Source of the DNA: a virus
IMG/VR virus record: IMGVR_UViG_3300037308_000350
Coordinates: 6,895 to 70,894 of that record
Length of the DNA stretch: 64,000 nt
Direction: 5' to 3' (one strand)
The first letter of the stretch is position 1. Each line of letters opens with the position of its first letter. Position numbers and translations under genes: made by a program. Under the pieces are notes generated by a model. The model was not told the DNA's origin. It was given only the letters and a program-made list of their open reading frames with translations, and searched no databases. Shown here in pieces: positions 37,691-56,410 of this stretch.

Positions 37691-38906
37691 TTGTTATTCC
37701 TATCTTGTTGATTAATGGTAAACACAAGAAGCTCGTTAGCGCAGATATTACAATTAAGGTTTGAAGCCCACATAAAGGTAATAAAGCGCCTCCAGTCCAC
37801 CCAGAAACATTGCCAGCTAAATTACTAACAGAACATAAAAACGCAAATGAAGTTGACTCTAATCCTATAATACATTGTCTTGCCATCCAGTCCATTACAA
37901 GAAGATGTATAAACATACTAACTGAGCTAAATACTATTCCATATACTATGTCTGAAGTTGGAGTAAAATATAAATAAAGAAGCGTAGTAAATGCTCCTAA
38001 GAACACAGACCACTTAAGCCATTGAATAGGATTCTTTATTTTCTTGCTAAATTTAAAATATAAGAAAGCTCCTCCAATTGAAATAATGGAATTAATTACT
38101 CCAAGAATTCCTATAAACATCTTGCTCCAGTGAAATACATCTCTTTCAATATACCAGAGAGGAGTTCCAAAAGAAGGATTAAATTTATATAGGAATAAAA
38201 ATAAACAAGCTACCAAGAAGGCTTTATTTTTAAATAACTTCTTGTAATCTATTTTTTTAGTTTTTAGATTACTACAATTATGGACAGGGTAAGTGCAATA
38301 TTGAACTCCTTCACACTCTACACAATTGCCTTTTCTTTTTTGTTCCTTATATTTTGATGTAAAGAATATTCCAATCAGGTAAAAAGGAATTAATAACAGG
38401 AATCCTATTTGGTAAGAAATATTCTTTTCAGCCAAATATGAGCCTATAAAACCGCTTATGATTCCAGCTACCGTAACAGATACCCATTGAACCGATTGAA
38501 TCTTTCCACAAATATCATATTTCTGACCCTCTACTACCATAATACCATCTACGGAAACATCCCTAAAGGCTGTATTCCAATTGCTAAACATCAAAGCTGT
38601 AATCAATAAGCCAAAAGGAAGTGTAAATAACCCTATAAATAGCGCAAATAAGAGGTCTATGGCTATTGCTAAAAGTATCCAAGTCTTACGAGTCCATTTT
38701 GAGTTGTCTATTATGATTCCGATGAGAGGTTTTACTACCCAAGCGAGAGAAATAAAAGAACTCATAAACATCAATGCTGAGGGAGTGAAATGCAGGGTTT
38801 CTTTTAGGTAATAAGAAAGCGGTGTTCCAGCTATTCCTCCAATACCTTGCAGGAAATAGACAGAACTATTTAGAGCGTAAATCAGGAAAAGATTTTTGTT
38901 TGTCAT
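37662..38906 (-). CDS. MFS transporter, BT1/folate-biopterin transporter-like
   Basis: About 12 TM segments; YFLQG, W.VKPLIG..D, AFRDVSVDG..V, QSVQW. Confidence 0.75.
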   Translation of the reverse strand: MTNKNLFLIYALNSSVYFLQGIGGIAGTPLSYYLKETLHFTPSALMFMSSFISLAWVVKPLIGIIIDNSKWTRKTWILLAIAIDLLFALFIGLFTLPFGLLITALMFSNWNTAFRDVSVDGIMVVEGQKYDICGKIQSVQWVSVTVAGIISGFIGSYLAEKNISYQIGFLLLIPFYLIGIFFTSKYKEQKRKGNCVECEGVQYCTYPVHNCSNLKTKKIDYKKLFKNKAFLVACLFLFLYKFNPSFGTPLWYIERDVFHWSKMFIGILGVINSIISIGGAFLYFKFSKKIKNPIQWLKWSVFLGAFTTLLYLYFTPTSDIVYGIVFSSVSMFIHLLVMDWMARQCIIGLESTSFAFLCSVSNLAGNVSGWTGGALLPLCGLQTLIVISALTSFLCLPLINKIGITNEITNEKRN

Positions 38907-39381
38907 TTAGTTTTATAATTTTAGCGAAACCTTCACTCTTTGTTGGTTTTTCATACATAGCATCAAACTTCTTCCATACAGATTCCCATAGTTTTCTATC
39001 AGGTTGTCCGTGAGGGTCTTTTAGTCTTCTATTAACAGATTTTTTCATTGAATATCTTGGCATCTCTATTACTGTAATTGAATAATTCCATTTTCTCGCC
39101 AAGAAGGAATATCTGGCTCGCATTGATTTAGTTATTCCAACTTCGTCTACTAATATATTTTGTCCTAAGAACATAAAATTATCAATTATATTTAATTCTG
39201 AATCCCAGATAGCTTTTTCTATTTTAGGCTCAAATCTATACTTTCCAGCTCCTATCATATATCTTAAGGAGTCTCTGGAGATAATGACGTGAGAGAAACC
39301 TTTAGAGATAAGCTTCTTACAGAAGGTAGATTTACCTGAGCCTATGTTTCCTATAAGTAAAACAAGTTCTGGTTTATTCAT
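38866..39381 (-). CDS. P-loop kinase, polynucleotide-kinase-like (AAA_33)
   Basis: LIGNIGSGKST, ISRDSLR, ILVD. Confidence 0.85.
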   Translation of the reverse strand: MNKPELVLLIGNIGSGKSTFCKKLISKGFSHVIISRDSLRYMIGAGKYRFEPKIEKAIWDSELNIIDNFMFLGQNILVDEVGITKSMRARYSFLARKWNYSITVIEMPRYSMKKSVNRRLKDPHGQPDRKLWESVWKKFDAMYEKPTKSEGFAKIIKLNDKQKSFPDLRSK

Positions 39382-39853: not shown

Positions 39854-40086
39854 TAGCCTATGTTATCAGAATCAATTGCTTGTTTGCCAAATATAATTAT
39901 TGAATGATTTTCTGTATAAATTCCTGTTCCATTACAAACTTTACACTTATTAACACACTTCTTTGGTTTCGTAAAGGCTTTGCAGGTATCACAAGCTACT
40001 CCACGATTACATATTGATTTTGGGTCTATTCCTGAACCATCACAAACCCAACATTGCTGTTTAAATTTCTTATGAATAATCTTCAT
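39853..40086 (-). CDS. DnaJ-type CxxCxGxG zinc-finger protein
   Basis: CWVCDGSG and CKVCNGTG. Confidence 0.65.
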   Translation of the reverse strand: MKIIHKKFKQQCWVCDGSGIDPKSICNRGVACDTCKAFTKPKKCVNKCKVCNGTGIYTENHSIIIFGKQAIDSDNIG

Positions 40087-40667
40087 TATTCACCATCCTT
40101 CGGAGTTACTAAATCTTTAGTTGAGGAAAGATAATCTGCTGTATAAACAATTAATTCCAGAAGGCTATAATCCTTAATATCTTTCTTTGCGGAAGCAGGT
40201 GTCCATAATCCCATATGATTACGGATACATTGATTAATTTCGTAGTATGCTGGCTTATCCGCATCAATATCGTATTGCTTTTTCATTACTTCAGATTGAG
40301 GAATAGAGGCAAAAAACTGTTCTGCGTTAAGGGGATGATTTTCATAATCCTCATAGCTTGTTTTTGCAACAGCAGGATTACCCACTTTGGCTATATCGTG
40401 TAGTATAACAGCCGAAAGGACTATATCTCTTTTCTCATATTCTATTCCCCATCCCACACAAAGTCTATTGGCTAAATATACTGCCCTTTTAACGTGCGTA
40501 ATTAGACCGCCCTCTTTAATTGTGCAAGTAGGATGATACTTTCCAGTAGAAGACGCAGGAGCTTTAAAGAAATAATCAGGAGTCTTCTCTAAGGTATCAA
40601 TAGTCCACTTCTTGATTTCTTCACTTTTAATTAGATTAATTTCATTCATTAAAACATCAGCCTTCAT
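40086..40667 (-). CDS. HD-domain phosphohydrolase (YhaM-like)
   Basis: PAS..YH..GGLITH, LHDIAK, I..HMG, ADY. Confidence 0.88.
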   Translation of the reverse strand: MKADVLMNEINLIKSEEIKKWTIDTLEKTPDYFFKAPASSTGKYHPTCTIKEGGLITHVKRAVYLANRLCVGWGIEYEKRDIVLSAVILHDIAKVGNPAVAKTSYEDYENHPLNAEQFFASIPQSEVMKKQYDIDADKPAYYEINQCIRNHMGLWTPASAKKDIKDYSLLELIVYTADYLSSTKDLVTPKDGE

Positions 40668-41401: not shown

Positions 41402-42418
41402 TTATTTACCATTTTGTATATAGGCAAAGAAACAGTTTCTTATTTTTTCTTCCGATAATTTTTTAAGCTTTTTAAAATCAATTACAGGATATTTTTCTTT
41501 CTTTAATATATCCCAAAGTTCTTCTTGAATAAAATCATAAAATACTGTATTCATAACTCTTCCAGTATCCTTTTCAGTTAATTGGGGATGATAAGTTTCT
41601 TCCTTTAATTTATCATCATAAATAATACTTCTACATTGAGGGCAAAACCATTCTTGTCCAAAAGTCTCTATCCGAGACCTTAATTCCACTTGACAGCATT
41701 TTGTTAGAGTTAATCCTTGACCATCCCTTATTTTTTCTATTATCTTTTCAATTCTATTCTTCGTTACATATTCTTCTACTAATTTGAGCTCTATATCGCC
41801 CATATTTTTTGGGTCTTTTGTTTGTTGGGCTTCTGCGTAGACTTCATTAATTATCTTTCCCCACTGTTGTCTACCAAATTTATTAACAAAAGCATAGTTC
41901 TTTAATACTATTCCCTCCTGACACGGACTTCCCTTAAAGGAATTAAATTTAAGGTAAGGAGCAAGAGAAATAGGTGTTGGGTTTTGTTCTACTCCTAAAA
42001 CTGGAGAATTCTTTGCTTCAAACATCTTCCATATAGGAAGACAAAGGTAATGGGGAAGATACTTCTGTATTGAAGTATCAAATATATCAAAGAACCATAT
42101 ATTATGGCTGATGCCTTCTGGATATTTTACCTTATGAGGAACAAGCCACTCTCCGTAAAAGATAAAATTAGGGTATTCTTCTACCATTTTTCTTAAAGAA
42201 GGATTCTTTTTAAGATATTCAATTATTCCCCTAAAGTTTCCTCCGTTCTTATCAGAATATATTTCTGTGTTCCTACTGGCGATACATACTCCTTTTTCGG
42301 AATCCCAATATAAGGAAACATTAGCGCCATCTATTTTTTCAAATATATGGACTTCTCCGTTCAGTAATCCCTCTACTTCTTCTTTTCCTATTCTTTCTAC
42401 ATCATCATATTTTCTCAT
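41402..42418 (-). CDS. ATP-dependent RNA ligase (Rnl2-like)
   Basis: EKIDGAN, FYGEW, FDIF, EGIVLK, GKIIN nucleotidyltransferase motifs. Confidence 0.85.
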   Translation of the reverse strand: MRKYDDVERIGKEEVEGLLNGEVHIFEKIDGANVSLYWDSEKGVCIASRNTEIYSDKNGGNFRGIIEYLKKNPSLRKMVEEYPNFIFYGEWLVPHKVKYPEGISHNIWFFDIFDTSIQKYLPHYLCLPIWKMFEAKNSPVLGVEQNPTPISLAPYLKFNSFKGSPCQEGIVLKNYAFVNKFGRQQWGKIINEVYAEAQQTKDPKNMGDIELKLVEEYVTKNRIEKIIEKIRDGQGLTLTKCCQVELRSRIETFGQEWFCPQCRSIIYDDKLKEETYHPQLTEKDTGRVMNTVFYDFIQEELWDILKKEKYPVIDFKKLKKLSEEKIRNCFFAYIQNGK

Positions 42419-43195: not shown

Positions 43196-43675
43196 TTAAT
43201 TAGTGGCTTTATGTTTCCTATTAAATATTGTTAAACCGTTTAAGTGGTCTACTTCGTGTTGAACAACTATAGCTTCAAAACCCTGAACAAATAATTTTTT
43301 GCGCTCTCCATCTTCTTCGTTCTCAAGCAAGATAGTAGTAGACCTATCTGTGATAACGGTTATATTTCCAAAGGAAAGGCACTGTTCGGTTACTCTTACC
43401 TTTCCGTTTCTTTCCAGTATCTTAGGATTAACCAGATTCATTTTAAAGGTATAATCTTCGGTAAGATTACCGTCTTTATCTTTCTTAGCGCCAAGCCTGA
43501 TGATTGAAACAGCTTTATCATAGCCAATTTGATTGGCAGATAACCCTACTGCTGTTTTGTGTTCCTTTATGGTATCCAACAAGTCCTCTAAGATGTCTCT
43601 TAATTCCTTTTTGTCTGTAACTTCCTGAGTCTTCCTGCTAAGTTCTTTTCTGTCTGTTACTATTTTTCTCACCAT
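43196..43675 (-). CDS. def: peptide deformylase
   Basis: GLSANQIG, EQCLS, QHEVDHLNG. Confidence 0.93.
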   Translation of the reverse strand: MVRKIVTDRKELSRKTQEVTDKKELRDILEDLLDTIKEHKTAVGLSANQIGYDKAVSIIRLGAKKDKDGNLTEDYTFKMNLVNPKILERNGKVRVTEQCLSFGNITVITDRSTTILLENEEDGERKKLFVQGFEAIVVQHEVDHLNGLTIFNRKHKATN

Positions 43676-45148
43676 TTAGAGCTCCTTTACTGTTGAATGA
43701 CCCTTACTTCTTTCTACTAAAAGTAATTTGACATCATCTATCTTGTCAATATTTTGATACGTCAATACTATTTGAAAAGGTAATTCTTTGCAAATCTCAA
43801 TAAATTTTAAAAGATTAACTTTATCAAGATTAGAGATTCCTTCATCTATAATAATTATTCCATCCAGATTCTTCTGGAGAAGTAAAGCAAGTTTAAAGGT
43901 AGCTGATAAAAATATACGCTGTCCAGCAGATAGTTGCATATAGCGCCTTGAAGCTCCATTATCCTGAAGCTCTAAGAAATCTGAAGTAGGTAAAAACTTT
44001 ACAGCGAGATTTACATTGCGTAAAAGATTATTGATTATGACTTCCAGATTCTTTAGCCATTCTCCTATATATACTCCAGCGAAAGTATCAATCGTCTTAA
44101 CAGCTTCATTGTAGACAACTACATCTTTCTTTGTATACTTATAGTCCTTAAACTTCATAGCTTCAACTAACTTCATTTGAAACTCTTTTGTCTTTAAAGA
44201 TTTTTGATTAGCGAAATTTAAAATAGAAGTAGCTTTTTCTAAATCAACCTGAGTTCTATTTAATTGTTCTTCGGTAAGAGATACTTCCTCATTGAGTTGT
44301 CCAATAATATTTATTCTTTCATCAGTCATTTTTACTACTTCTTCTTTTGTTATTCCCCTACCGCAAAGTGGACATTTGTTTTCGCCAAGATTAATGAGTT
44401 CTTTTTCTGTTCTTTCAATAGTATTTTTCTTAAATTGAATACTGCTTTTCATTTCATTAATCATTTTATTAAGCTGGCGACAAATATCTTCCGCTTTTTG
44501 ATATTGAGCCACTAAAGATTTCTGACCCTCATCAAGAACTTTCTTCCTGCGGTCTGAGAGATGAAATTTATATACCTTCTTATCAATATTAAATTGTTCC
44601 CTATCCAATTTCTTCTTTAAGAGCTTCTGCCTGAGACTGGTAAAATAATCCTCAAGGAATCCCATTAAAGTCTTCTTCAGGGTAACAATGCTTCGTGAGT
44701 CTTTACAATAATCAAGGAGGTTAATCCCTTCTGAGACATCTATAGTCCTAAACTGTTTAAATTGCTTAAGGTCTCCAAAAACCTCATCAATGAAGCCCTG
44801 CTTTAAAGGAATAGTGTTTGCCTTATATTCTTCCCCATTTACCCATATCTCAAGCCCTGTGGGTAAAATACGCCTTATTCTATAGAGAATTCCCTTGTTT
44901 TCGGCATCTATTTCAACAAAGCCACCCTTTTCCCCTTCCCTCAGTAAATCTTTCGCTGTGAGCCCTTCTAAGCTTCCGTAGAAGACAAATTCAAGGGCAT
45001 TTCGGCTGAATACGGTCTTTCCGCTACCGTTTGAGCTGTTATTTGGGTCGTCATTGTTGCGCCCAATAACGATATTGAGCTTATCCAGACCTATTTCTAA
45101 GTCCTTGTAAATCTGAAAGTTATGGAGTTTTACGCTTTTTATTACCAT
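43676..45148 (-). CDS. SbcC/Rad50/gp46-like ABC ATPase
   Basis: NGSGKT Walker A, CPLCG hook, LSAGQ signature, IIIDEG, LD. Confidence 0.9.
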   Translation of the reverse strand: MVIKSVKLHNFQIYKDLEIGLDKLNIVIGRNNDDPNNSSNGSGKTVFSRNALEFVFYGSLEGLTAKDLLREGEKGGFVEIDAENKGILYRIRRILPTGLEIWVNGEEYKANTIPLKQGFIDEVFGDLKQFKQFRTIDVSEGINLLDYCKDSRSIVTLKKTLMGFLEDYFTSLRQKLLKKKLDREQFNIDKKVYKFHLSDRRKKVLDEGQKSLVAQYQKAEDICRQLNKMINEMKSSIQFKKNTIERTEKELINLGENKCPLCGRGITKEEVVKMTDERINIIGQLNEEVSLTEEQLNRTQVDLEKATSILNFANQKSLKTKEFQMKLVEAMKFKDYKYTKKDVVVYNEAVKTIDTFAGVYIGEWLKNLEVIINNLLRNVNLAVKFLPTSDFLELQDNGASRRYMQLSAGQRIFLSATFKLALLLQKNLDGIIIIDEGISNLDKVNLLKFIEICKELPFQIVLTYQNIDKIDDVKLLLVERSKGHSTVKEL

Positions 45149-45392
45149 TTTTCTCCTCTATAACATACTGTTTCATAAGGGATGTTGAAAGAACTTCAAT
45201 AACCGCTACTGCCTCCTCAATCATCAGGTTAAACTTCCAGAGCTCTTTATTCTTTTTGATACAGAGCCTATAGTGGTCGTGAGGAGGATTAGGATTCTTT
45301 AAGAGTCCTGAGCATACATAAACATTGTTATTGAATCCGCATATAGAGCTCTTTTTGCAATGTTTACAGGCGAAGTTTTTTAGCTTTTTCAT
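45120..45392 (-). CDS. Cys-rich hypothetical protein
   Basis: CKHC, ICG, VCS motifs. Confidence 0.55.
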   Translation of the reverse strand: MKKLKNFACKHCKKSSICGFNNNVYVCSGLLKNPNPPHDHYRLCIKKNKELWKFNLMIEEAVAVIEVLSTSLMKQYVIEEKNGNKKRKTP

Positions 45393-46282
45393 ACTTCCTC
45401 CAAGATAGCACTGACTATCTCTTTATCTATACCACTTTTAACCAAGTATTCTTTTAATGAGGATGTAAAATCTTTAGCTTGTATTTTTTGTTCTTCTTTT
45501 ACTTCCGTTTTTATTGTAGTAAAATTTGTTTTAATCCTGAAATCTATAAATTTCTCCTTATATTTATTTGAGATAGCTGAGAAGGCTTTAAAGTCCTCAA
45601 AAGTATTTATTATAACTCTTACTTTTGTATCTGCTTTTATTTTAGATAAGGACTCTTCATTCTGATAAACTACATCCAACATAGGGTAAGGAGTTTTTAA
45701 TGGAATAAGTTTAAAGGTTTTCTCCATTTCGCTAATTTCCAATAAACCTACATATTTTTTCTGGTCATTAACTTCATCAAACCTAATGTAACGCACTGAG
45801 CCTAAGTGATAAACATTTTTAATATTCTGATACGAGTGTTGATGCCCTAAGAAAACATATTTATATTTCTCTAATTCCTTTACTGACATATCTGCGCCAA
45901 ATCCTTTAGAGCTTTCCTTTAAAGTATAGTGCCCTAATAGAAATTTAGTTGATTTTGAATACTCGTATATGTAAGAATTTGGAACTATTTTAATTGAGGG
46001 AAGTATTACTCCAAAATGATTCAAGACAGAATTCTCTGGAGATATACTTTCGTGAGACATTGCGGAAAGAATAACCATCTTCTTATTTAATTTCTTCAGG
46101 AAGGAAGCGAAGAGGTCTAATTCTGTAGGAGAAGGATTTACCACATCAAAGGTATCTCCTAAAGACCATACCTCAGTTGCGCCAGTTTCATTGGATAGAG
46201 TTATTATTTCTTCTGTTACTCTTTCTATTTCTTTTTTATCTCTATCCTTAATATGTAAATCAGTAAAAATTAAGATGTTCAT
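45389..46282 (-). CDS. SbcD/Mre11/gp47-like nuclease
   Basis: FTDLH, LGDTFD, GHY, LGHQH, GS motifs; next to SbcC-like gene; GNH motif degenerate (AMSHE). Confidence 0.85.
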   Translation of the reverse strand: MNILIFTDLHIKDRDKKEIERVTEEIITLSNETGATEVWSLGDTFDVVNPSPTELDLFASFLKKLNKKMVILSAMSHESISPENSVLNHFGVILPSIKIVPNSYIYEYSKSTKFLLGHYTLKESSKGFGADMSVKELEKYKYVFLGHQHSYQNIKNVYHLGSVRYIRFDEVNDQKKYVGLLEISEMEKTFKLIPLKTPYPMLDVVYQNEESLSKIKADTKVRVIINTFEDFKAFSAISNKYKEKFIDFRIKTNFTTIKTEVKEEQKIQAKDFTSSLKEYLVKSGIDKEIVSAILEEV

Positions 46283-46569
46283 TTATTCTTCTTTCGTTTT
46301 GGAGGATTCTTAGTAGGAAGCTTATAAGTCTTCTCCAATTCATTCATCATTAAAACCATTTTTTCAAACCTACCATCAAAAATCTTATCCATAAGCGTCT
46401 TACAATTATCACAAATTTCTTTTTCTTTATTTATTGTGTTAAATTGTTGCTGATTCAATCCAAAAGGCTTTTGCTGTATATAATTTAATTCTTCTTCTGA
46501 GACTATGCTTAATATCCACTTTATTCCCTTAATCGGCTGTGAACATAAATCACAAAAGCTGACTTTCAT
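46279..46569 (-). CDS. zinc-binding hypothetical protein
   Basis: CDLC and CDNC. Confidence 0.6.
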   Translation of the reverse strand: MKVSFCDLCSQPIKGIKWILSIVSEEELNYIQQKPFGLNQQQFNTINKEKEICDNCKTLMDKIFDGRFEKMVLMMNELEKTYKLPTKNPPKRKKNK

Positions 46570-47083
46570 ATTTCTCCTTATTTAGGTTTAAAAAATATGA
46601 ATTAACTTTTTTATTAAAAATAAATTTTTTAATTTGGTTTAATCGTTTTTTACTTTTAATATAAGGAGTTATTTTTGTTAATAACGCTAAAATTTCGCCT
46701 AAATTATTTACTTGCCACGTTAAACAACAATTAAATTTTCCATTACTATAAACTTTACCAAGATAAAGAGTTTTATAAATATAGTGTAAAGCGCTTGGGT
46801 CTTTTTGAGATATAATAAATTTATAATAATAGTATACTTTATTTTTAACAACTTTTTTATATACTCCAATTGACCCTTCTCCCTCCCAAAATCCAGTAAA
46901 CCATAAAAGGAACTCTTTTAAAGAGTTTAACTTATGCAAAGCTTGAAAATAATATCTTTGAGTAAAATAAAAATTTCTACATTTTATACATCTGTTATGA
47001 TTACCAAAAGTTATCAACTTTCCACAATCACAACATCTGTTGTTTATTTTTTCTACCCTTAATTTATAATAATTTTTATCCAT
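46550..47083 (-). mobile_element. free-standing LAGLIDADG homing endonuclease with N-terminal Cys cluster
   Basis: WFTGFWEGEGSI, ISQKD..L..I..L..G.V; very AT-rich. Confidence 0.8.
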
Positions 47084-48144: not shown

Positions 48145-48534
48145 TTATTGTATAAATACCTTCTTTTTACCGCCTAATTTTTTAGTTGTCCAAACGGAAA
48201 GATTAGAGACTTTTTTCTTTCTAAAGGATTCATAATCTTTCTCGGATACCCAGCCATAACACGATTCTTTTAACTTCGTCATAGTATCATACACTTCTTT
48301 GTGAATATGGTGTTCTTCTTTTGGATGAGTAGGAAACACTATTCTGATTCCACAACACAACAATCCCAAAGTCAAGCTAAGATTGTGCATTGCTCGGTCA
48401 TTCTCAAACTCCACAAGAAGAAATTGAAAAGTAGACCAATTAAACTTCTTCATCTTAAATATTTCTGTAAGACATTGCCAAACACTAATAAAGATTCCGT
48501 TTTTAAATTCAAATGTTCCATCCTTAAATTTCAT
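48145..48534 (-). CDS. hypothetical protein with central hydrophobic segment
   Basis: ORF coupled to polymerase. Confidence 0.55.
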   Translation of the reverse strand: MKFKDGTFEFKNGIFISVWQCLTEIFKMKKFNWSTFQFLLVEFENDRAMHNLSLTLGLLCCGIRIVFPTHPKEEHHIHKEVYDTMTKLKESCYGWVSEKDYESFRKKKVSNLSVWTTKKLGGKKKVFIQ

Positions 48535-50287
48535 TTGATTCCTCCCATAAGAGTTCTTTATTTTTCTTTTCAGCCCAATTAGAGCATACTTTTATTTCTG
48601 CGCAAATATTAATGTCGTCTAATGGGTAATCTACCTTATTTTTAATCTCTTTAAGCAATTCATCATTTAAAAGAGCTTCTTCTACTTCAATAACAATTTC
48701 ATCGTGAACCTGATTGATTATATGAATCTTATTTTCTTTTACCAGAGGATATAATTTAATAAGAGCGTTCTTAGCTATATCAGCTTCGCTACCAACTATT
48801 ACTGAATTAAAGGCTTCTCTATCAAGAAAAGCTTTGTAGCCATCTTTGACATTAGGTAGCCATTCTAAGTGTCTTTTACGATTGAATAAGGTAATGACAT
48901 AATTATTTTTATGAAAACATTCCAAGACCTTTTTCTTAAAATAAAAAACATTCTTATAGCTTTCCTTAAAGTTATTATATATTCTTTCTGCTTCAGGCAA
49001 TAATTGTTCCTCTGTTAATTCTGGTCTATAGGGTCTTAATTCTCTAACTAAACCCTTTGTAGAGAGCCCATATATAATTCCAAAGTTAAGTATCTTCGCA
49101 AAATCTCTTTCTGATTCGTTGATGTCTTCTTTTCCAAAAGTTAATTTGGCTGTAAGCTTATGAATATCCCCATTCTCAGAGAAAGCCTTTAAAAATACTT
49201 TTTCCTGCGCCATATGAGCAAGTATTCTTAAGTGCATCTGAGAATAATCAATAACTAACAACTTATGCCCTTCTGGAGCAATATACATTTCACGGATGCG
49301 GTCTTCTTTCTTTGTAATCTGTTGCGTATTTGGTCTTTCTGCGGATAGTCTTCCTACCCTTGTTCCTGTAATATTAAAATGAGGATGAATCCTGCTGTCT
49401 TCTCCAACTCTTTCTTTAACTGGAGTAATAAAAGTATTTAAGGTTTTAACTTTCTCTCTATAATCAAGTATTCTAATTGCCAACTCAACTCCCTGATTCT
49501 TAAGTGTATGCAAAACCTCTGTGTCTGTAGAATTCTTGTTTCCTTTTTTAGTCTTTTTCACAGGAGTTAATCCCATTACTTCAAAAAACATTTTTGATAA
49601 TTGAGCAGGAGAATTAATATCAATTTTATTAGGGCAAACCTCAAGCGCTTTTTCTTCAAGCCTAATTACTTCCTCTTTATATTCTTTGTCTAAAACCTCA
49701 AGCTTATTTTTATCAACATACATTCCGTATCTTTGGGCTGATAAAAGAACAGGTATGAGATTAAATTCAAACTTTAATTTATCGTGAGGAAGCTTTTCTT
49801 TATAAAAATCAAATAAGCGCTCTGTAACAGCTAACTGGCGTTTACAGTGCTGGGCTAACTCAATAATATCTGGGTTTTTAAAGTTCTTATACTCGGTTAT
49901 ATCTACCTTAAATTTATTTTTTGCTAAATCAATAAGTTTATGAGACTGATTTTCATCCTCTACCCAAGAAGCTATTTGAGTGCAAAAGATATTTTCAGTA
50001 AACTTAAAGCCAGCTATATTTAAAAGGTTTAAGTCAAACATTGCATTGTGAATAATTATATAGGAACAATTTACTAACATATCTTCAAATACTTCCCTAT
50101 CTAATAACTCATAAGGGATTAAATAATCCTGCTTTTCATATCTAATTCCTATTAAAAGAATTTGGCAATTATCTTCTAACCCTGTTGTTTCAAGGTCAAA
50201 AGTAAAAGGCGTATTTGCTTTAAAGTCAATCTGGTCAAAACTGTGAAGAACGCCTTCCTGTAATCCTTTTAATATTATTTCGTTCAT
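48524..50287 (-). CDS. polA: family A DNA polymerase (3'-5' exo domain plus polymerase), atypical residues
   Basis: DLETTG, HNAMFD, TRVGRLSAERPNTQQI, DYSQMHLR, RDFAKILNFGIIYG, QVHDEI. Confidence 0.95.
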   Translation of the reverse strand: MNEIILKGLQEGVLHSFDQIDFKANTPFTFDLETTGLEDNCQILLIGIRYEKQDYLIPYELLDREVFEDMLVNCSYIIIHNAMFDLNLLNIAGFKFTENIFCTQIASWVEDENQSHKLIDLAKNKFKVDITEYKNFKNPDIIELAQHCKRQLAVTERLFDFYKEKLPHDKLKFEFNLIPVLLSAQRYGMYVDKNKLEVLDKEYKEEVIRLEEKALEVCPNKIDINSPAQLSKMFFEVMGLTPVKKTKKGNKNSTDTEVLHTLKNQGVELAIRILDYREKVKTLNTFITPVKERVGEDSRIHPHFNITGTRVGRLSAERPNTQQITKKEDRIREMYIAPEGHKLLVIDYSQMHLRILAHMAQEKVFLKAFSENGDIHKLTAKLTFGKEDINESERDFAKILNFGIIYGLSTKGLVRELRPYRPELTEEQLLPEAERIYNNFKESYKNVFYFKKKVLECFHKNNYVITLFNRKRHLEWLPNVKDGYKAFLDREAFNSVIVGSEADIAKNALIKLYPLVKENKIHIINQVHDEIVIEVEEALLNDELLKEIKNKVDYPLDDINICAEIKVCSNWAEKKNKELLWEESNEI

Positions 50288-50865
50288 CTCACCAATCCTG
50301 TTAGGGCTAAAATAATAGCATCACATATATTGTCGTCTTCTAAATCCACTTCCAGAAGATTGCTTACCCATTGAATTATTTCGGCTTTCTTCTGGTCTCT
50401 TTTAGACTTCTTTGGTAGCTGAGATTTAAAACCTACCTGTTTCCTTGCTGATGTAGGAAATACTATTCTTATATTTTCAAAATAATCAAATAACTCAGCG
50501 TAAAGTAATCCCATAAATCCCTTTAAGAATCCAAAAGTCCAAGGGTCAAAAGATAAGAAGGAGTTTTCTAAAACTAATATTGTTTTTGAATTAGCTTTTT
50601 TATTCTCACACATTCTCTTCTTAAAATCTCTTATCATAATAAGTAAAGCATTTAGAGATTCTTCATACTTCGCTGACTTATCTTCAGTGTCTCTTGGAAT
50701 TTTTGGAATTTTAATTATTTCTGTTTCAATAATTACTTTATTATTTGTGGTAGTAATAATTGCCACTCCAGAGGTAGAGGCGGTATCTATTCCTACACAA
50801 AAAGCGTTCTTTTGAATAGGAATTCCCAGCTTTCTTTCTAATTTAGGTAAAGTGATATGTATCAT
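50284..50865 (-). CDS. ruvC: RuvC-like Holliday junction resolvase
   Basis: VGID..STSGVA, LVLE, PTSARK, DNICDAI. Confidence 0.8.
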   Translation of the reverse strand: MIHITLPKLERKLGIPIQKNAFCVGIDTASTSGVAIITTTNNKVIIETEIIKIPKIPRDTEDKSAKYEESLNALLIMIRDFKKRMCENKKANSKTILVLENSFLSFDPWTFGFLKGFMGLLYAELFDYFENIRIVFPTSARKQVGFKSQLPKKSKRDQKKAEIIQWVSNLLEVDLEDDNICDAIILALTGLVR

Positions 50866-51111: not shown

Positions 51112-52170
51112 TTAAAATATTTCGCTTTCTTTTGTTTTAACAAAGCCTGTATTAAAATAAAAAGGAATATGAAGGTCGCTAAGTTCTGGTTTACTGTTGC
51201 TTTTCTTTGTCTTTTCAATCTTTAATACGCAATCAAACCCTATTTTAATTTCATCAAACTTAGGTTTACCTTTTTCATCCTTTTCATCTAATTCTATCTT
51301 TGTAGTAGGAGCATCTGCGCCCTGACCTTTTCTCATATAAATAGTGAGCATAGACCAGTGCTTTACTGCGTGTCCACCTGTTAAGCCTTCCTTTGTAATA
51401 AAAGAGCCTATTCCCTCTGTTCTTACCTGACCTATTAAGATAACTCCAACCTTTCCTTGATATATAAATGGCGCTGTTCTGCGCAAGAATTTACCCATCT
51501 TACGAGCCAGAAGAGCCATTTCTGATTGCTTCATAGACCTTTCTTTTTCTGCTTTCCCTTCAAACTGTTCTTCTGAAGGAGACATTGCTTGAATTGAATC
51601 AATGATAATTAGGTCTACTGCTTTTTCTTTCGCCAATTTAATTACTATATCCATTGCTTGTTCGGCAGTTGTGCAATCCTCAATCAAGGCTAATTGCTCT
51701 GGGTCAACTCCGAAATCCTTCATTCTGCTGACATCTAAGGTATGTTCCAAATCAATATAGGCGCATACCTTTCCCTTTTTCTGGGCTTCAGCAATTTGCG
51801 TAATAGCTAAAGTCGTTTTACCTACACCTTCTCCACCGTAGAAGATTACAAAATTACCAACTACAGCTCCTCCTCCAGCAAATTCATCTAAAGGAGTTAC
51901 TCCAAAAGGTAAACTTTCTTTAGGAGGCTCTTCATTAGCAAATTTTACCATAGAAGGATTTTTAAATTCTTTATTTATTTCCTTCATAACCTTGAGAAGT
52001 TTTTCTTTCTTCTCATAAACTATTTCTTCTTTTGTTTCTCTCACTTCAGCCTTCTTTATTTTTTCTTCAGCTTCAGCGAGCTTTTTTTCAGGTTCTTTAC
52101 AGCCAATATCCTTGAAAACATTACCAGAACCTTTGGTTATTTTATTTTTTGAGCCTTTAGTTCTACCCAT
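51112..52170 (-). CDS. recA: RecA/UvsX recombinase with N-terminal extension
   Basis: GGEGVGKTT, YIDLEH, LIIIDSI, ILIGQVR, GGHAVKH. Confidence 0.93.
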   Translation of the reverse strand: MGRTKGSKNKITKGSGNVFKDIGCKEPEKKLAEAEEKIKKAEVRETKEEIVYEKKEKLLKVMKEINKEFKNPSMVKFANEEPPKESLPFGVTPLDEFAGGGAVVGNFVIFYGGEGVGKTTLAITQIAEAQKKGKVCAYIDLEHTLDVSRMKDFGVDPEQLALIEDCTTAEQAMDIVIKLAKEKAVDLIIIDSIQAMSPSEEQFEGKAEKERSMKQSEMALLARKMGKFLRRTAPFIYQGKVGVILIGQVRTEGIGSFITKEGLTGGHAVKHWSMLTIYMRKGQGADAPTTKIELDEKDEKGKPKFDEIKIGFDCVLKIEKTKKSNSKPELSDLHIPFYFNTGFVKTKESEIF

Positions 52171-52345: not shown

Positions 52346-52649
52346 TATTAAAAAAATCTTTAATATCTAAGGAAACAAAGGTATCTCCAAGACTATTTTT
52401 TTGAACTAATATAGGCACTCTTGTAGAATTGATAGGTAATTCCCTTAAAAGCTTTTGCCATATATCGTGATTTAAAACAACATTCTTTCTATCCCAATTC
52501 TTGCACTCAACCATAAAATACTTATTATTAACATCCCCAAGTTCGGTTGAGCCACCAGAATTGCGAGTGGGTCTGGCATATTTATCCAGAGGCTTGATAT
52601 ATTCAGCTACAACCCACTCTAATTGTTGTCCTTTTTCTTTATTATCCAT
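52314..52649 (-). CDS. Hjc-like PD-(D/E)xK endonuclease
   Basis: E..V..SGG..GDV..VECK. Confidence 0.75.
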   Translation of the reverse strand: MDNKEKGQQLEWVVAEYIKPLDKYARPTRNSGGSTELGDVNNKYFMVECKNWDRKNVVLNHDIWQKLLRELPINSTRVPILVQKNSLGDTFVSLDIKDFFNIAYKAFGYEK

Positions 52650-54520
52650 TAGAATAAATTATCCTTAGATTTTAATTCTTTCGTTTCTGGATTATAAACG
52701 CAATCAATTTTATAACTTCTAAAGTTACCTTTAGGTTCTTTTATTTTTTCTACTTCAAAATGACCTTCTCTTCCATCCTCAGAATCATAGATGTATTTTG
52801 TAGCAAAGGAGGGAAATTGAAGCGCCATATTTTTAGCAAACCACTCATCATTTTCTTTTAGCTGAGTAAAAATAATGAGTAATCCACCCTTTGATTGCAT
52901 TTCTTCGTTTAAGTGTTTAAATACTACATCTGTTTCGCTTTTGTCTTCAACCAATAACCAGTCAATAATAGTAACTGAATTAGGTTCTATTTCAATTGAC
53001 AATGGGTTTGAATGATAAGCGTGAAAGTATGAACCTGTAGGAATATTTAAAATCTTTTCTATCTTCTGAAATCTACTTCCAGACTCAGAATAAATATAGT
53101 AAGGTTTTAAATTTTGTTTCACAAAGGTTTGAATAAAATTCATAGCTATAGTTGTTTTTCCTACGTTTGTTCTACCTCCAATTAATATAATATCTCCAGC
53201 TTGGAAAGAGGATATTTCATTAAAGTAAGCTATCTTATAAGGCAAGGTAACTCCCAGCTCAGTATGCTGGTCGCTCCATTCAATCTTCTCACGATACTTG
53301 TATCTTCCTCTGCCAAATCGTATAGCCTTTCTCTCTTTTACAAACTTGGAAAGATATTTGTCTATAATAGCCCTATTAATCTTCAAACTTTCCATTACGT
53401 CTTTTGCTGTTACTTCACCCTGCTGTTTCAAGTATTCGTAAACTTGTTTTTCAAGAGTTAAATCTTCTCCTTTACGATACCTATCCAATTGCTGTAACAT
53501 TTTCATTATTTCAACTTTAGATAGGGGAGGCACAAAGAAGGTTTGAGAAATAAGCATAAGTATTTCTGCTGTTCTCTCAATATCGTATTTGTGCGATAAC
53601 ACTCCACCCATTGAAATCAGGAGGTCATTTCTTCCCTCTCCTTCTTTTAAGGTTTTAACTCCTGCTACTTCTTGAGCAGAGAGTAGAGCATTGTCTAATT
53701 TAGATTCGTCTATCCCTTTGACGCTTGCCTTTACTGGTTTTAATTCTATGAGTTTCTTTTTTAACTCTTCAGGAATTTTCTTTATTTCATTTCCTAAGTT
53801 GAGAAACTCATATTTACCGTCTAATGTCTTAGAAGGCTGAATCACAACATACCCACCAGAGTTTCTGGTATCAATTTTAGAATTTCCAAAATTAACGCCT
53901 TGAGGAATCTCTTCATCAAATTGAAAAATAAAGTGAGTTCCTCCTCTTGGGCTTTTCTGCCTTAATGTATTAGAGTCCTCCAGTAGCTTCATTAATTCAG
54001 TTCTCAGGGCTACATCATTAGCTTCTTTATAGGTATCAGCGTCAATGATAGTTACATTACTATCCTTGCCTGTTTTTAATCCTATATTATAGCCCTTACT
54101 GGAGAATCTTATCCAGTCAACTTTATTCTTGTAGTTTGAATTTTGCCATCCCTCTTCTACAGGAATTTTAGAATCCTTTCCTATGGGAATTAAAGACCAG
54201 CCATAATTCTTATAGGCATCAAACTCCTTATATACATCTAAATCTAAGGATTCAATGAGGTATTCTGTAATCTGCGCATCTGTCCAGTTCGCTTTATCTA
54301 CCTCTAACATCTTTACTACGCTATAAATAGTGCCTTTATAACCACACTCCAAGCACATAACCTTACCCACATCATCAGTAGTAAACATAGCTGAAGGTAA
54401 ATCCTTCTTAAGCTTATGAGGAGCTGGACAAGTAAAGAGGAATTGACCTCTTTTATTACTTGTTTGAAATTCAGGTATCTTAGTTTTAAGATACTCTATA
54501 AATTTCTTGCTAATGTCCAT
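52649..54520 (-). CDS. primase-helicase: Zn finger, bifunctional Prim-Pol, PriCT, wHTH, RecA-fold P-loop domain
   Basis: CPAPH..CLEC; IPI..K.P..GW, NIGLKTG, IIDAD, SPRGGTHF; EGEGRND; GGRTNVGKTT. Confidence 0.85.
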   Translation of the reverse strand: MDISKKFIEYLKTKIPEFQTSNKRGQFLFTCPAPHKLKKDLPSAMFTTDDVGKVMCLECGYKGTIYSVVKMLEVDKANWTDAQITEYLIESLDLDVYKEFDAYKNYGWSLIPIGKDSKIPVEEGWQNSNYKNKVDWIRFSSKGYNIGLKTGKDSNVTIIDADTYKEANDVALRTELMKLLEDSNTLRQKSPRGGTHFIFQFDEEIPQGVNFGNSKIDTRNSGGYVVIQPSKTLDGKYEFLNLGNEIKKIPEELKKKLIELKPVKASVKGIDESKLDNALLSAQEVAGVKTLKEGEGRNDLLISMGGVLSHKYDIERTAEILMLISQTFFVPPLSKVEIMKMLQQLDRYRKGEDLTLEKQVYEYLKQQGEVTAKDVMESLKINRAIIDKYLSKFVKERKAIRFGRGRYKYREKIEWSDQHTELGVTLPYKIAYFNEISSFQAGDIILIGGRTNVGKTTIAMNFIQTFVKQNLKPYYIYSESGSRFQKIEKILNIPTGSYFHAYHSNPLSIEIEPNSVTIIDWLLVEDKSETDVVFKHLNEEMQSKGGLLIIFTQLKENDEWFAKNMALQFPSFATKYIYDSEDGREGHFEVEKIKEPKGNFRSYKIDCVYNPETKELKSKDNLF

Positions 54521-54544: not shown

Positions 54545-55012
54545 TTATATTGATAACCAGTCTACAAACTGATTAGCTACTTTTAAAACCATTTCTTTAA
54601 GCGTATCTGGGTCTTCTGTTCTTCCAGAGAATAAAGCGCAAGAAGCATTGAGGGCGTTTCCTCTGATTATATGTCTCTGCTTTTCTGCTTCCTGTTCTGG
54701 AGTAAGCTTTGTCCAAGAGCTACCAGCATTTGACTGAGCGCTCTTCTGCTGAGTTCCTTCAGCTTTAGGGTCGGCTTTCTTTTCTTCTGCTGGAGGAGGC
54801 GTTGTAGCTGAGGTAATAGTCAATTTCTTAACTATCCTCTTATATTTTCCTTCCATTTCGTAGCCTACCTCTACTTCATTACCTTTAGCAACCGTTTTAA
54901 GAAGGTCTATATTGGCTTTGTCGTCTTCTTTGACGTTATACCAATCGTTTCCTATCTTAAAAGAAATACCATTACCAGCTTTACAAGCTACTTTTCCCTT
55001 AATCGTTTCCAT
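54545..55012 (-). CDS. hypothetical protein (OB-like N-domain, Pro/Ala linker, helical C-domain)
   Basis: ORF in replication cluster. Confidence 0.55.
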   Translation of the reverse strand: METIKGKVACKAGNGISFKIGNDWYNVKEDDKANIDLLKTVAKGNEVEVGYEMEGKYKRIVKKLTITSATTPPPAEEKKADPKAEGTQQKSAQSNAGSSWTKLTPEQEAEKQRHIIRGNALNASCALFSGRTEDPDTLKEMVLKVANQFVDWLSI

Positions 55013-55346
55013 CTTTTTCTTCCTCCGTTAAAGGTATTACTTGATTAGCTCTAATTTTGGTTTTACTTTGCTTTTTTCCGTCTTTGTCTTCCCAGCTTTC
55101 TTGAATCAAGACTCCTAAAACAAGAACTGGACTACCCTTGCTTAATACTTGAACCAGTTCTTTTGCTTTCTTTCCCCAAACAACTACATCAATAAACAAA
55201 GAATCATTTTTAACTTCTCCTTGTTTATTTTTTGTTGTGCGAGTATTAACAATCGTTATATTTGTTACAGAAACTTTATCATTAATTTGTTTCAACTCTG
55301 GGTCTCTAACAACCTTACCCGAAATGGTAATGTCATTAATCTGCAT
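54999..55346 (-). CDS. ssb: single-stranded DNA-binding protein
   Basis: ISGKVVRDPELK, FIDVVVWG, KGSPVLV.G.L..ESWEDKDG. Confidence 0.92.
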   Translation of the reverse strand: MQINDITISGKVVRDPELKQINDKVSVTNITIVNTRTTKNKQGEVKNDSLFIDVVVWGKKAKELVQVLSKGSPVLVLGVLIQESWEDKDGKKQSKTKIRANQVIPLTEEEKDGND

Positions 55347-56148
55347 CTTTTTCTCCCTTCTTTTTTCTTTCCTTTTTTACCACAGGTTTTTGTGGTAAAT
55401 AAATCTCTTCTATCTTTTGCCTTAAAGAATAATAAGGTATTTTATTTAAATCTAAAGTTTTTATTGGTAAATTAGATAACTGCCATCTAATAGCTGTCTC
55501 CAAATCTGGAGGAAGTTCCAATAAAGACACTACTTTTTTCCTTCTCTCTAATTCTTGGTCGTTTTGTGGCGCTCCTAAAAGATTATCTGAAACGTCTCCT
55601 TTCATTATTTTTTCCTGCAATACTTTATAACCATTAGGAATATCTTTGAATTCTTTTTTCAAAATACTAAATACTTTTACATTAGGATAAACAACTAATT
55701 GCTCCCAATCCCTGTCAGAAGAGACTAAAATAACTTCTTCATTTTCAAAATACCTGCAAGCAACTGAAGCCCAATCATCTGCTTCTACTTTGGGTAATTC
55801 TACAAAACACCAAGGAACTGCCCTTCTTAACTTTTCGTTGAATTCTTTAAAATCTTTATATATTTCTTTCCACCAGTCTGCATTTTCTAATGCTTCTCTG
55901 TTCTCTTTTCTTTGGGCTTTATACTGAGGGTCAATAGCTCTTCTCCAGCTACCCAAAGGAGAATCCATAGCAACTATTATTTTATCCTCATAGTCCAGCC
56001 CTAATTTATTTAAGCAAGCTATCATCATTCTTAAATAAAGATATGTAACAGGAACACCTGAAGGGTTTACTCTAAAGGAAAATATCGCCCTGTGCATCAG
56101 GTATCCGTTATCTACGATAACTACTTTTTGTTTCTTTTCGTTATCCAT
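55336..56148 (-). CDS. 5'-3' exonuclease (FEN/T4 RNase H-like); start reassigned to MDNEKK
   Basis: IVDNGYL, WRRAIDPQYKAQR, EADD, SSDRDW, GDVSDN. Confidence 0.9.
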   Translation of the reverse strand: MDNEKKQKVVIVDNGYLMHRAIFSFRVNPSGVPVTYLYLRMMIACLNKLGLDYEDKIIVAMDSPLGSWRRAIDPQYKAQRKENREALENADWWKEIYKDFKEFNEKLRRAVPWCFVELPKVEADDWASVACRYFENEEVILVSSDRDWEQLVVYPNVKVFSILKKEFKDIPNGYKVLQEKIMKGDVSDNLLGAPQNDQELERRKKVVSLLELPPDLETAIRWQLSNLPIKTLDLNKIPYYSLRQKIEEIYLPQKPVVKKERKKKGEKDAD

Positions 56149-56410
56149 TAATTTTCTCCAATACAAATTGCGGAAACCATACTTCTTCACCAGCAGGGTC
56201 GTATTGACCTTGTTTTGTTCCTTCAATTCTTACTAAATACCACCAATACTTTAAGCCACAAAACTTAGCTGGTTTTTTAAGTAGAACAATAGCTGTCTTT
56301 CCATAATATAAGGCAGAGTTATCACCATCCTTTATCAATACTTTACTTTGATAAGGTATGGGTTCTGGAAAATCTCTATAATCAAAATCAAACTCTACCT
56401 GTTCTGGCAT
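56141..56410 (-). CDS. hypothetical protein (SH3-like beta pattern)
   Basis: Coupled ORF. Confidence 0.55.
   Translation of the reverse strand: MPEQVEFDFDYRDFPEPIPYQSKVLIKDGDNSALYYGKTAIVLLKKPAKFCGLKYWWYLVRIEGTKQGQYDPAGEEVWFPQFVLEKING

What the first reader, a model, noticed from the sequence alone, without database searches (positions are those of the whole stretch)
48524..50287. Family A polymerase with His at the steric gate and a degenerate ExoIII motif
Seen: motif A reads DYSQMHLR (His codon 49232-49234) where family A has DYSQIELR. The ExoIII segment reads ELAQHCKRQLAVT (His 49847-49849, Gln 49835-49837) where YxxxD is expected. ExoI DLE, ExoII FD, motif B R..K...FG..YG and motif C HDE are intact. 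Known: this Glu (Klenow E710, Taq E615, T7 E480) excludes rNTPs, and the ExoIII Asp (Klenow D501) is a proofreading metal ligand. Inference: an active polymerase with altered sugar selectivity and weakened proofreading. It could incorporate ribonucleotides or modified sugars, act as a mutator, or specialise in primer extension or repair next to the FEN-like nuclease.
Basis: partly seen in the sequence, partly recalled or inferred. Interest (0 to 1): 0.8.

Follow-up and report, generated by a model that had tools for sequence, protein, structure and literature searches.

The report
Phage DNA polymerase with histidine gate
This freshwater phage's only DNA polymerase replaces several "invariant" active-site residues, including the glutamate that keeps RNA building blocks out of DNA. 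The same histidine-plus-relocated-acid combination recurs in other uncultured phage polymerases and in one bacterial Pol I, so it looks like a working alternative design rather than a defect.

Summary
ORF 48524-50287(-) is a 587-aa Klenow-like family A polymerase. It has His352 where Taq has Glu615 and Klenow has Glu710, and H147-x3-Q151 where ExoIII has Y-x3-D.

It is not an error. All five homologues at 46-50% identity keep both features, and near-identical strains differ almost only at third codon positions.

The clade also replaces the TGR threonine (V311), the universally conserved Gln (Klenow Q849, here V/I498) and P325. It puts Glu501 where 87% of 262 other PolAs have Ala.

His at the gate always comes with an acid at position 501. 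This holds in four groups: this clade, a large uncultured phage family (119 of 120 listed), a small split-polymerase phage group, and a Patescibacteria Pol I. Of 109 Glu/Asp-gate background polymerases, none has an acid there. An AU test rejects a single origin (p 0.0038).

My reading is a compensated rewiring of the Glu-Gln-Arg and water network under the nascent base pair. His acts as the steric gate, as it does in C-family polymerases.

A complete 90-kb relative has no other polymerase, so this enzyme is the replicase. Relaxed sugar choice is possible but not indicated. The exonuclease keeps D-E-D but lacks the fourth acid, so its activity is uncertain.

The adjacent gene is RuvC-like, not FEN.

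The parts
48524..50287 (-). Family A DNA polymerase gene, 587 aa: 3'-5' exo domain about residues 1-170, pol domain about residues 171-575
   Evidence: AF2 model pLDDT 95. Foldseek TM 0.85 to Bst large fragment.
49226..49249 (-). Motif A, DYSQMHLR (residues 347-354). His352 (49232-49234, CAC) sits at the steric-gate position. Met351 replaces the usual Ile.
48770..48808 (-). Motif 6 / helix Q, N494..K506, reading NSVIVGSEADIAK. Val498 (48794-48796) replaces the Gln found in 262 of 262 other PolAs (Klenow Q849). Glu501 (48785-48787) replaces the usual Ala (Klenow A852).
49340..49363 (-). TGR motif region (residues 309-316), reading TRVGRLSA. Val311 (49355-49357) replaces a Thr or Ser found in 262 of 262 others. 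Arg313 (Klenow R668) is kept.
49313..49333 (-). PNTQQIT (residues 319-325) instead of PNLQNIP. Asn to Gln at 323, Pro to Thr at 325.
   Evidence: P in 260 of 262 others, N in 249 of 262.
49067..49108 (-). Motif B / O-helix, intact: R394, K398, F402 (Klenow F762), Y406 (Y766), G407.
48698..48706 (-). Motif C, H528-D529-E530, intact.
50189..50197 (-). ExoI, D31-L-E33, intact.
50033..50047 (-). ExoII, N81-x3-D85, intact.
49835..49849 (-). ExoIII variant H147-C-K-R-Q151 in place of Y-x3-D. H, C, K and Q are invariant in the clade.
49982..49984 (-). Cys102 in the exo domain, replacing an Asp (the FDT motif) that is D in 246 of 250 other PolAs.
50284..50865 (-). Upstream neighbour, overlapping the polymerase start by 4 nt: RuvC-like Holliday junction resolvase, not FEN.
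   Evidence: phrog_1770 at 4.4e-5, phrog_159 at 7.8e-5. Homologue in G001.
51112..52170 (-). RecA-like recombinase.
   Evidence: PF00154, 2.6e-42.
52649..54520 (-). Prim-Pol (AEP) primase fused to a DnaB/RecA-type helicase domain.
   Evidence: PF09250, 3.6e-20; DnaB_C weak.
54999..55346 (-). Single-strand DNA-binding protein.
   Evidence: phrog_44, 5e-30.
55336..56226 (-). Separate 5'-3' exonuclease / FEN.
   Evidence: PF02739, 4.6e-19. (phrog_107).
43676..46282 (-). SbcC-like ATPase (43676-45148), a short ORF, and an SbcD/Mre11-like metallophosphoesterase (45389-46282).
   Evidence: Both are conserved in G001.

Best explanation
The gene encodes the replicative family A DNA polymerase of a roughly 90-kb freshwater phage. 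The floor of its nucleotide pocket is built in an alternative, compensated way.

In canonical PolAs four elements form one interacting cluster under the nascent base pair: the gate Glu (Klenow E710), the motif-6 Gln (Q849), the TGR Arg (R668), and a bound water that reads the minor groove of the incoming base.

Here the gate residue is His352. The carboxylate is supplied instead from one helical turn beyond the lost Gln, by Glu501 (canonical Ala). The other polar partners have become hydrophobic: TGR Thr to Val311, and Gln to Val498.

Inferred mechanism:
- Glu501 holds the imidazole in place and keeps the negative charge that positions Arg313.
- The His ring packs under C2' of the incoming dNTP and excludes a 2'-OH sterically, as His does in C-family polymerases.
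- The enzyme therefore stays a dNTP-selective, DNA-templated replicase.
- Loss of the Gln probably removes one minor-groove check on the template strand and may lower the penalty for extending odd pairs.

The 3'-5' exonuclease domain is under selection and keeps three of the four carboxylates. It has His and Gln in ExoIII. It is most likely a weakened or mechanistically altered proofreader rather than a decayed one.

Shown: the substitutions, their conservation, their co-variation, their recurrence, and that this is the sole polymerase in a complete relative. Inferred: the geometry of the His-Glu pair and all of the biochemistry.
For: 1. Position: the gapless alignment to Taq puts H352 at E615.

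2. Clade-wide conservation of the rewired residues, against near-universal residues in 262 other PolAs:
- position 498: V/I in the clade, Q in 262 of 262 others
- position 311: V in the clade, T or S in 262 of 262
- position 501: E in the clade, A in 228 of 262
- position 325: T in the clade, P in 260 of 262

3. Coupling of His at the gate with an acid at 501:
- all 6 clade members
- 119 of 120 listed members of the large phage family G2, all with D501; its one Glu-gate member, P0364, is canonical T/E/Q/G
- 5 of 5 G3 members
- 4 of 4 assemblies of the Patescibacteria Pol I, G4
- 0 of 109 Glu/Asp-gate cellular and viral controls have an acid at 501

4. Recurrence:
- The best tree needs 4 changes of the His state.
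- G2 is sister to canonical L082 and L039 (SH-aLRT 100).
- The AU test rejects one clade for all His-gate rows (dlnL 122, p 0.0038).
- Each His group scores higher against canonical PolAs than against the other His groups.

5. Structural basis from the literature:
- In KlenTaq ternary complexes one water is H-bonded to E615, N750, Q754 and the O2 of the incoming base (PMC6125688).

6. [quoted passage not shown]

7. Function retained:
- The AF2 model is a full Klenow-like fold.
- 38 of 40 listed strain differences are at third codon positions.
- The complete DTR genome G001 (90,469 bp) has one PolA and no PolB or Pol III alpha, and is syntenic with the window.

8. Exonuclease:
- The exo domain is 48.5-50.3% identical within the clade, against 47.3-50.9% for the pol domain.
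- Among PolAs with intact D-E-D, only this clade and one other sequence lack the ExoIII Asp.
Against: - No biochemistry exists for any His-gate PolA.
- Engineered Taq variants that lose E615 (with I614M) gain rNTP use (PMC6125688, PMC6345897). This clade also has Met at the preceding position, so relaxed sugar selection cannot be excluded.
- Q754 is among the least substitution-tolerant KlenTaq residues (PMC6345897), so its loss may carry a real cost in fidelity or activity.
- Independence of G1 and G2 is not statistically established: the AU test for G1+G2 as one clade gives p 0.485.
- With at most 4 independent contrasts, the co-variation cannot reach significance in a sign test.
- D501A-type and Y497A-type changes leave only 3-4% exonuclease activity in phage Tt72 PolA (PMC9324360).
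Confidence: 0.6

Rival explanations
1. Relaxed sugar gate. His does not block the 2'-OH, or even H-bonds to it, so the polymerase inserts ribonucleotides or other 2'-modified sugars.
For: - The gate Glu is absent, and the preceding residue is Met.
- Taq I614M/E615G-type variants use NTPs (cited in PMC6125688 and PMC6345897).
- The ExoIII Asp is missing, so misinserted units might persist.
Against: - His is a bulky ring that serves as the steric gate in C-family polymerases (PMC8485763).
- F402 and Y406, the other sugar-sensing residues, are intact.
- The same design is used by a chromosomal Patescibacteria Pol I and by the sole replicases of two phage families. A leaky gate would load these genomes with rNMPs.
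- The change is compensated by an acid at 501 rather than standing alone.
Confidence: 0.15
2. Adaptation to non-canonical DNA. The rewired minor-groove and sugar floor lets the replicase copy or insert modified nucleotides made by phage enzymes.
For: - The template-side minor-groove reader Gln is lost.
- The window holds two weak nucleoside deoxyribosyltransferase-fold genes, a weak dATP/dGTP diphosphohydrolase-like hit, an HD protein and an amidoligase.
- A G3 contig has MazG.
- A G2 genome has dCMP deaminase next to its PolA.
Against: - The Pfam hits are below the curated cut-offs.
- Most of these genes have no homologue in the complete relative G001; only one NDT-like gene is shared.
- Neither genome has PurZ.
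- Known phage base modifications other than 2-aminoadenine lie in the major groove (my knowledge).
- The Patescibacteria Pol I and three G2 members keep the Gln.
- No modification gene is common to all four groups.
Confidence: 0.15
3. Artefact or decaying gene: a sequencing or assembly error, or a pseudogenised polymerase that is no longer used.
For: None beyond the unusual residues themselves.
Against: - The frame is open for 587 aa.
- An independent assembly is identical.
- The features are conserved in 5 homologues at 46-50% identity.
- Strain differences are third-position biased.
- All catalytic carboxylates are intact.
- It is the only polymerase in a complete relative.
Confidence: 0.02

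Closest known systems
Bacterial Pol I large fragments (Klenow, Bst LF, KlenTaq)
   Same: Two-domain exo+pol fold: TM 0.85, best PDB hits 1e-59 to 1e-52. Motif A Asp, motif B RxxxKxxxFGxxYG, motif C HDE, ExoI and ExoII are shared.
   Different: About 26-34% identity. The differences are:
- gate Glu to His
- Q849-equivalent to Val/Ile
- TGR Thr to Val
- A852-equivalent to Glu
- PNLQNIP to PNTQQIT
- ExoIII YxxxD to HxxxQ
- FDT Asp to Cys
- the 5'-3' exonuclease is a separate gene
Uncultured phage PolA family 'G2' (e.g. P0270-P0389, about 40-45 kb contigs; no cultured member found in 50,697 GenBank phage records)
   Same: The same signature: VGR, His at the gate, Leu/Ile at the Gln position, and an acid (Asp) at the Ala position.
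   Different: - Only 24-26% identical to the window's enzyme, which scores higher against canonical Pol I.
- Motif A is SQEH, with a Glu one residue earlier.
- Motif B has Tyr at the F762 position.
- Motif C is HDS.
- ExoIII keeps the Asp.
C-family replicases (E. coli Pol III alpha H760; G. kaustophilus PolC)
   Same: A histidine side chain contacts the deoxyribose and is the presumptive steric gate (PMC8485763).
   Different: An unrelated fold and active-site architecture. This is an analogy of mechanism only.
Engineered Taq variants with altered sugar specificity (E602V/A608V/I614M/E615G; SFM4-3)
   Same: The changes fall at the same two motif A positions (Ile to Met, and Glu replaced).
   Different: The engineered enzymes remove the side chain (Gly) to open the gate. 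The natural enzymes install a bulky His and add a compensating acid on helix Q.
S. cerevisiae Pop2p, a DEDD exonuclease with a non-canonical core (S188, T389, Q394)
   Same: A Gln stands in place of the last DEDD Asp, and in vitro exonuclease activity is retained (PMC7962489).
   Different: It is an RNA deadenylase and has also lost the first Asp. It is not a polymerase-linked proofreader.

Membership tests
Family A DNA polymerase (Pfam PF00476; Klenow-like) | Profile match over the whole pol domain, above the curated cut-off | tested here: met
   306 bits against a cut-off of 34.3; profile positions 2-381 of 381.
Family A DNA polymerase (Pfam PF00476; Klenow-like) | Catalytic carboxylates of motif A (Asp) and motif C (HDE), and the motif B Arg/Lys/Tyr-Gly | tested here: met
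   D347, D529, E530, R394, K398, Y406, G407.
Family A DNA polymerase (Pfam PF00476; Klenow-like) | Klenow-type fold (fingers-palm-thumb plus exo domain) | tested here: met
   pLDDT 95; TM 0.84-0.86 to Bst LF structures.
Family A DNA polymerase (Pfam PF00476; Klenow-like) | Steric-gate Glu in motif A (Klenow E710) | tested here: not met
   His352. Across all 268 aligned PolAs the column is E 255, D 6, H 7.
Family A DNA polymerase (Pfam PF00476; Klenow-like) | Minor-groove Gln of motif 6 (Klenow Q849) and Thr of the TGR motif | tested here: not met
   V498 against Q in 262 of 262 others; V311 against T/S in 262 of 262. The TGR Arg313 is kept.
DEDDy 3'-5' proofreading exonuclease of PolA (PF01612) | ExoI DxE and ExoII NxxxD | tested here: met
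   D31, E33, N81, D85, invariant in the clade.
DEDDy 3'-5' proofreading exonuclease of PolA (PF01612) | ExoIII YxxxD (the fourth carboxylate and the Tyr) | tested here: not met
   H147-x3-Q151. The Pfam match stops at profile position 133 of 173.
Cellular DNA polymerase I | N-terminal 5'-3' exonuclease fused to the Klenow part | tested here: not met
   no PF02739/PF01367 in the protein. A separate FEN gene lies at 55336-56226.
DpoZ (2-aminoadenine-specific PolA) | Co-occurrence with PurZ in the phage genome | tested here: not met
   no PF00709 match in G000 or in the complete relative G001.
'His-gate' PolA design (defined here) | His at the gate position together with Asp or Glu at the motif-6 Ala position | tested here: met
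   H352 and E501. The pairing holds in all four groups and is absent from 109 controls.

The most novel reading that the evidence does not exclude
The His-gate plus relocated-acid arrangement is a second, naturally recurring solution for the family A nucleotide pocket, and it changes substrate choice. It might admit ribonucleotides or 2'- or minor-groove-modified nucleotides, or read modified templates. If so, these phages (and one Patescibacteria lineage) replicate with a different sugar or minor-groove rule than every characterised PolA.
Probability: 0.2. Interest if true: 0.9.

Novelty: new variant of a known kind. Interest (0 to 1): 0.7.

Why it matters
E710, Q849 and the TGR threonine are treated as fixed features of family A polymerases. 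They are also prime targets when these enzymes are engineered for RNA, XNA or modified-nucleotide synthesis.

This window shows that nature has replaced all three together, with a compensating acid. It has done so in sole replicases of phages and in a bacterial Pol I, and more than once.

That gives enzymologists a natural, selected alternative scaffold to test:
- how sugar and minor-groove checking really work
- whether the Glu is needed as a carboxylate or only as bulk
- which second-site changes make gate substitutions tolerable

It also adds a marker for classifying uncultured phage polymerases: VGR / xH / [VIL]G[ST][DE]. I found no paper describing it, but my search covered only the open-access library held here.

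Tried and rejected
- Sequencing error: rejected by homologue conservation and an independent assembly.
- Second polymerase that would make this one auxiliary: no PolB, no Pol III alpha and no second PolA in the complete relative G001. The window's own record is incomplete, so this cannot be shown for it directly.
- Z-genome/DpoZ link: no PurZ.
- FEN-like neighbour: the adjacent gene matches RuvC-like resolvases.
- DNA pattern scans for DYSQxHLRxLA gave several chance hits in non-polymerase frames (L002, L211-L213, L219, L220, L222-L225, L227-L230). These were discarded after translation.
- Independent-contrast sign test for co-variation: only 2-4 contrasts, so it cannot reach significance.
- AU test of G1+G2 as one clade: not rejected (p 0.485). 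A separate origin of these two phage groups rests on the best tree and on similarity scores only.
- Literature: no paper found with E710H, E615H, E480H, E658H, E895H or E2335H. Czernecki et al. 2023 (PMC10201439) treat the gate position A2 as conserved and name Ala as the only TGR-Thr variant. Their logos (a figure) could not be read.
- Cultured relatives: none closer than about 30% identity in the GenBank phage collection, for either G1 or G2.
Full report
**1. The observation**

The ORF at 48524-50287 on the minus strand encodes 587 residues. Pfam assigns a full DNA_pol_A domain (306 bits) and the first two-thirds of the PolA 3'-5' exonuclease domain. In a phmmer search of PDB sequences, the stretch DYSQMHLRILAH aligns without gaps to Taq DYSQIELRVLAH, so His352 occupies the position of Taq E615 / Klenow E710.

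- H352: CAC at 49232-49234
- H147: CAC at 49847-49849
- Q151: CAG at 49835-49837

In a MAFFT alignment of the 268 nearest PolAs, H147 falls in the ExoIII Tyr column and Q151 in the ExoIII Asp column. ExoI (D31, E33), ExoII (N81, D85), motif B and motif C are canonical.

**2. It is real and under selection**

A search of 5.8 billion proteins found five homologues at 46-50% identity. All keep DYSQMHLRILA and HCK(K/R)Q. An exhaustive search of 1.84 billion cluster representatives shows the clade is small and isolated: the score drops from 527 bits to 262 bits for the next relative.

A Logan contig from the source run, a freshwater metagenome, is identical over the gene. Short contigs from two other studies (freshwater and soil) are about 93% identical. 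Of the 40 differences listed for them, 38 fall at third codon positions and none is listed at the His codon.

The AF2 model is confident (pLDDT 95) and superposes on Bst and Klenow large fragments at TM about 0.85.

**3.

I compared the six clade members with 262 other PolAs.

| Position | Clade | Other 262 PolAs | Canonical feature |
|---|---|---|---|
| 498 | Val/Ile | Gln in 262 of 262 | Klenow Q849 |
| 311 | Val | Thr 255, Ser 7 | Thr of the TGR motif |
| 325 | Thr | Pro in 260 | PNLQNIP |
| 323 | Gln | Asn in 249 | PNLQNIP |
| 501 | Glu | Ala in 228 | Klenow A852 |
| 102 | Cys | Asp in 246 of 250 | FDT, exo domain |

The catalytic residues and Arg313 (Klenow R668) are unchanged.

**4. His at the gate is coupled to an acid at position 501**

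I scanned IMG/VR, JGI metagenomes and GTDB genomes with a DNA pattern for DYSQxHLRxLA. I then ran two further protein searches. Together these revealed three more groups.

| Group | What it is | TGR region | Gate | Motif 6 | Other |
|---|---|---|---|---|---|
| G2 | Large uncultured phage family, contigs about 40-45 kb | V in 118 of 120 | His in 119 of 120 listed | L/I in 116 of 120 at the Gln position; Asp501 in 119 of 120 | |
| G3 | Small phage group with exo and pol on separate genes | DER | DYSQ[IL]HLR | IL[TC]TEAQ | |
| G4 | Chromosomal Pol I of a Patescibacteria bacterium, four assemblies | SGR | DYSQIHLR | IQGLEAD | next to tsaE; |

Every His-gate protein has Asp or Glu at position 501. 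None of 109 Glu/Asp-gate cellular and viral PolAs used as background does.

The single Glu-gate member within the G2 hit list, P0364, is fully canonical (T, E, Q, G). Three G2 members and G4 keep the Gln, so the obligatory pair is His plus acid. The one non-His PolA with Glu at 501, P0090, is a Parcubacteria enzyme and may be an intermediate state.

**5. How many origins**

I built an IQ-TREE tree of 135 pol domains with the trait columns removed. It needs four changes of the His state. It places G2 as sister to two canonical viral PolAs with SH-aLRT 100.

The AU test rejects a single clade for all His-gate rows (dlnL 122, p 0.0038). It does not reject G1+G2 as one clade (p 0.485).

By BLAST, however, each His group is closer to canonical PolAs than to any other His group:
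- G1 scores 206-260 bits against canonical PolAs and about 92 bits against G2.
- Canonical P0364 lies within the G2 divergence range.

So two origins are statistically supported, and three or four are indicated. The number of independent contrasts is too small for a formal co-variation test.

**6. Why these residues go together**

The literature places the canonical residues in one network.
- In KlenTaq ternary complexes, a water bound to the O2 of the incoming base is held by E615, N750 and Q754. Q754 and R573 also read the minor groove of the terminal pair (PMC6125688).
- Q754 and R573 are among the least mutable KlenTaq residues (PMC6345897).

Position 501 is three residues after the Gln, on the same helix. 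My inference is that Glu501 takes over the carboxylate role. It would hold His352 and Arg313, while Val311 and Val498 remove H-bond partners that are no longer needed.

A His ring can act as a steric gate. [quoted passage not shown]

Two further facts point the same way. The design is used by a bacterial Pol I, and it is used by phage enzymes that are the only polymerase in their genome. The complete relative G001 (90,469 bp, direct terminal repeats) has one PolA, no PolB and no Pol III alpha, and is syntenic with the window.

The simplest reading is that function is preserved: a dNTP-selective replicase, perhaps with a weaker minor-groove check.

All of the biochemistry is inference.

**7. 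The exonuclease**

In phage Tt72 PolA, Ala substitutions of the Y497 and D501 equivalents leave 4% and 3% of exonuclease activity (PMC9324360). Loss of both side chains should therefore matter.

Three observations argue against a dead domain.
- The exo domain is as conserved within the clade as the pol domain: 48.5-50.3% against 47.3-50.9% identity.
- D31, E33, N81 and D85 are invariant.
- Among the PolAs in this set that keep D-E-D, only this clade and one other sequence lack the ExoIII Asp. In every other PolA here that lacks it, ExoI or ExoII is broken as well.

There are also precedents for the two substitutions. Twenty of 120 G2 enzymes have His at the Tyr position with the Asp kept. Yeast Pop2p has Gln at the last DEDD position and is still active in vitro (PMC7962489).

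I rate an active but altered proofreader at about even odds.

**8. Context**

The polymerase sits in a replication and recombination module, all on the minus strand:
- SbcCD-like genes
- the polymerase
- a RuvC-like resolvase (the adjacent gene; not FEN)
- a RecA-like protein
- a RusA-like resolvase
- a PrimPol-helicase
- SSB
- a separate FEN

The nucleotide-metabolism hits nearby are weak or not shared with G001. They are two NDT-fold genes, a dATP/dGTP diphosphohydrolase-like gene, an HD protein and an amidoligase. PurZ is absent. I found no modification gene common to the four groups.

**9. Comparison and novelty**

The protein is a family A polymerase by profile, fold and catalytic motifs. 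It fails three 'invariant' features (gate Glu, motif-6 Gln, TGR Thr) and the ExoIII motif.

No cultured phage in 50,697 GenBank records has a close relative of G1 or G2. I found no paper on a Glu-to-His gate in PolA. The 2023 reclassification of PolAs treats the gate as conserved and names Ala as the only TGR-Thr variant (PMC10201439).

Earlier notes of this scan report His gates in archaeal PolB and in a minimal PolA. These were leads only and I did not test them here.

I class this as a new variant of a known kind, with interest 0.7.

Noticed in passing
L233 (JGI 3300041082 contig, 20 kb): genes at 2520-3284 and 3344-4420: G3 His-gate polymerases are split. A separate 254-aa exo-domain gene sits directly upstream of a pol-only gene of about 360 aa, whose TGR motif reads DER. 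The contig also carries AAA_33, MazG, a metallophosphatase, a Cpn60/GroEL gene and DUF6899. Several of these have counterparts in the window.
   Followed up: partly
P0090 (Parcubacteria PolA) and P0117 cluster (Patescibacteria Pol I; MDP2945834.1, MEK7178344.1): P0090 has the canonical gate Glu but already has Glu at the motif-6 Ala position (IQGAEAD). It may be an intermediate towards the His-gate Pol I of a related CPR bacterium.
   Followed up: partly
window 46550-47083 (-): A 177-aa ORF matches a PHROG annotated as HNH endonuclease (5.8e-7). It has an N-terminal Cys-rich stretch and lies inside the replication module. It is possibly a homing endonuclease.
   Followed up: no
window 38866-39381, 40086-40667, 41402-42418 (-): An AAA_33 kinase-like gene, an HD-domain gene and an RNA ligase (PF09414) lie close together. 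They resemble an RNA (tRNA) repair set.
   Followed up: no
window 43196-43675 and 35428-36612 (-): The phage encodes a peptide deformylase (PF01327, 3.9e-32) and an M16 insulinase-type peptidase (PF00675, 9e-35).
   Followed up: no
window 60224-60928 (-), 59907-60224 (-), 61205-61579 (-): An amidoligase (PF12224, 8e-22) lies next to DUF5698 and DUF6899 genes. The amidoligase has no homologue in the complete relative G001.
   Followed up: partly
G000 record (73,555 bp) versus G001 (90,469 bp, DTR): CheckV rates the window's record at 42% complete. Synteny with a complete 90-kb relative suggests that about 80% of the genome is present.
   Followed up: partly
an IMG/VR viral PolA row in the tree set: One Glu-gate viral PolA has Val in the TGR motif and Ala at the motif-6 Gln position, with Ala at 501. 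This is another partial departure from the canonical network.
   Followed up: no
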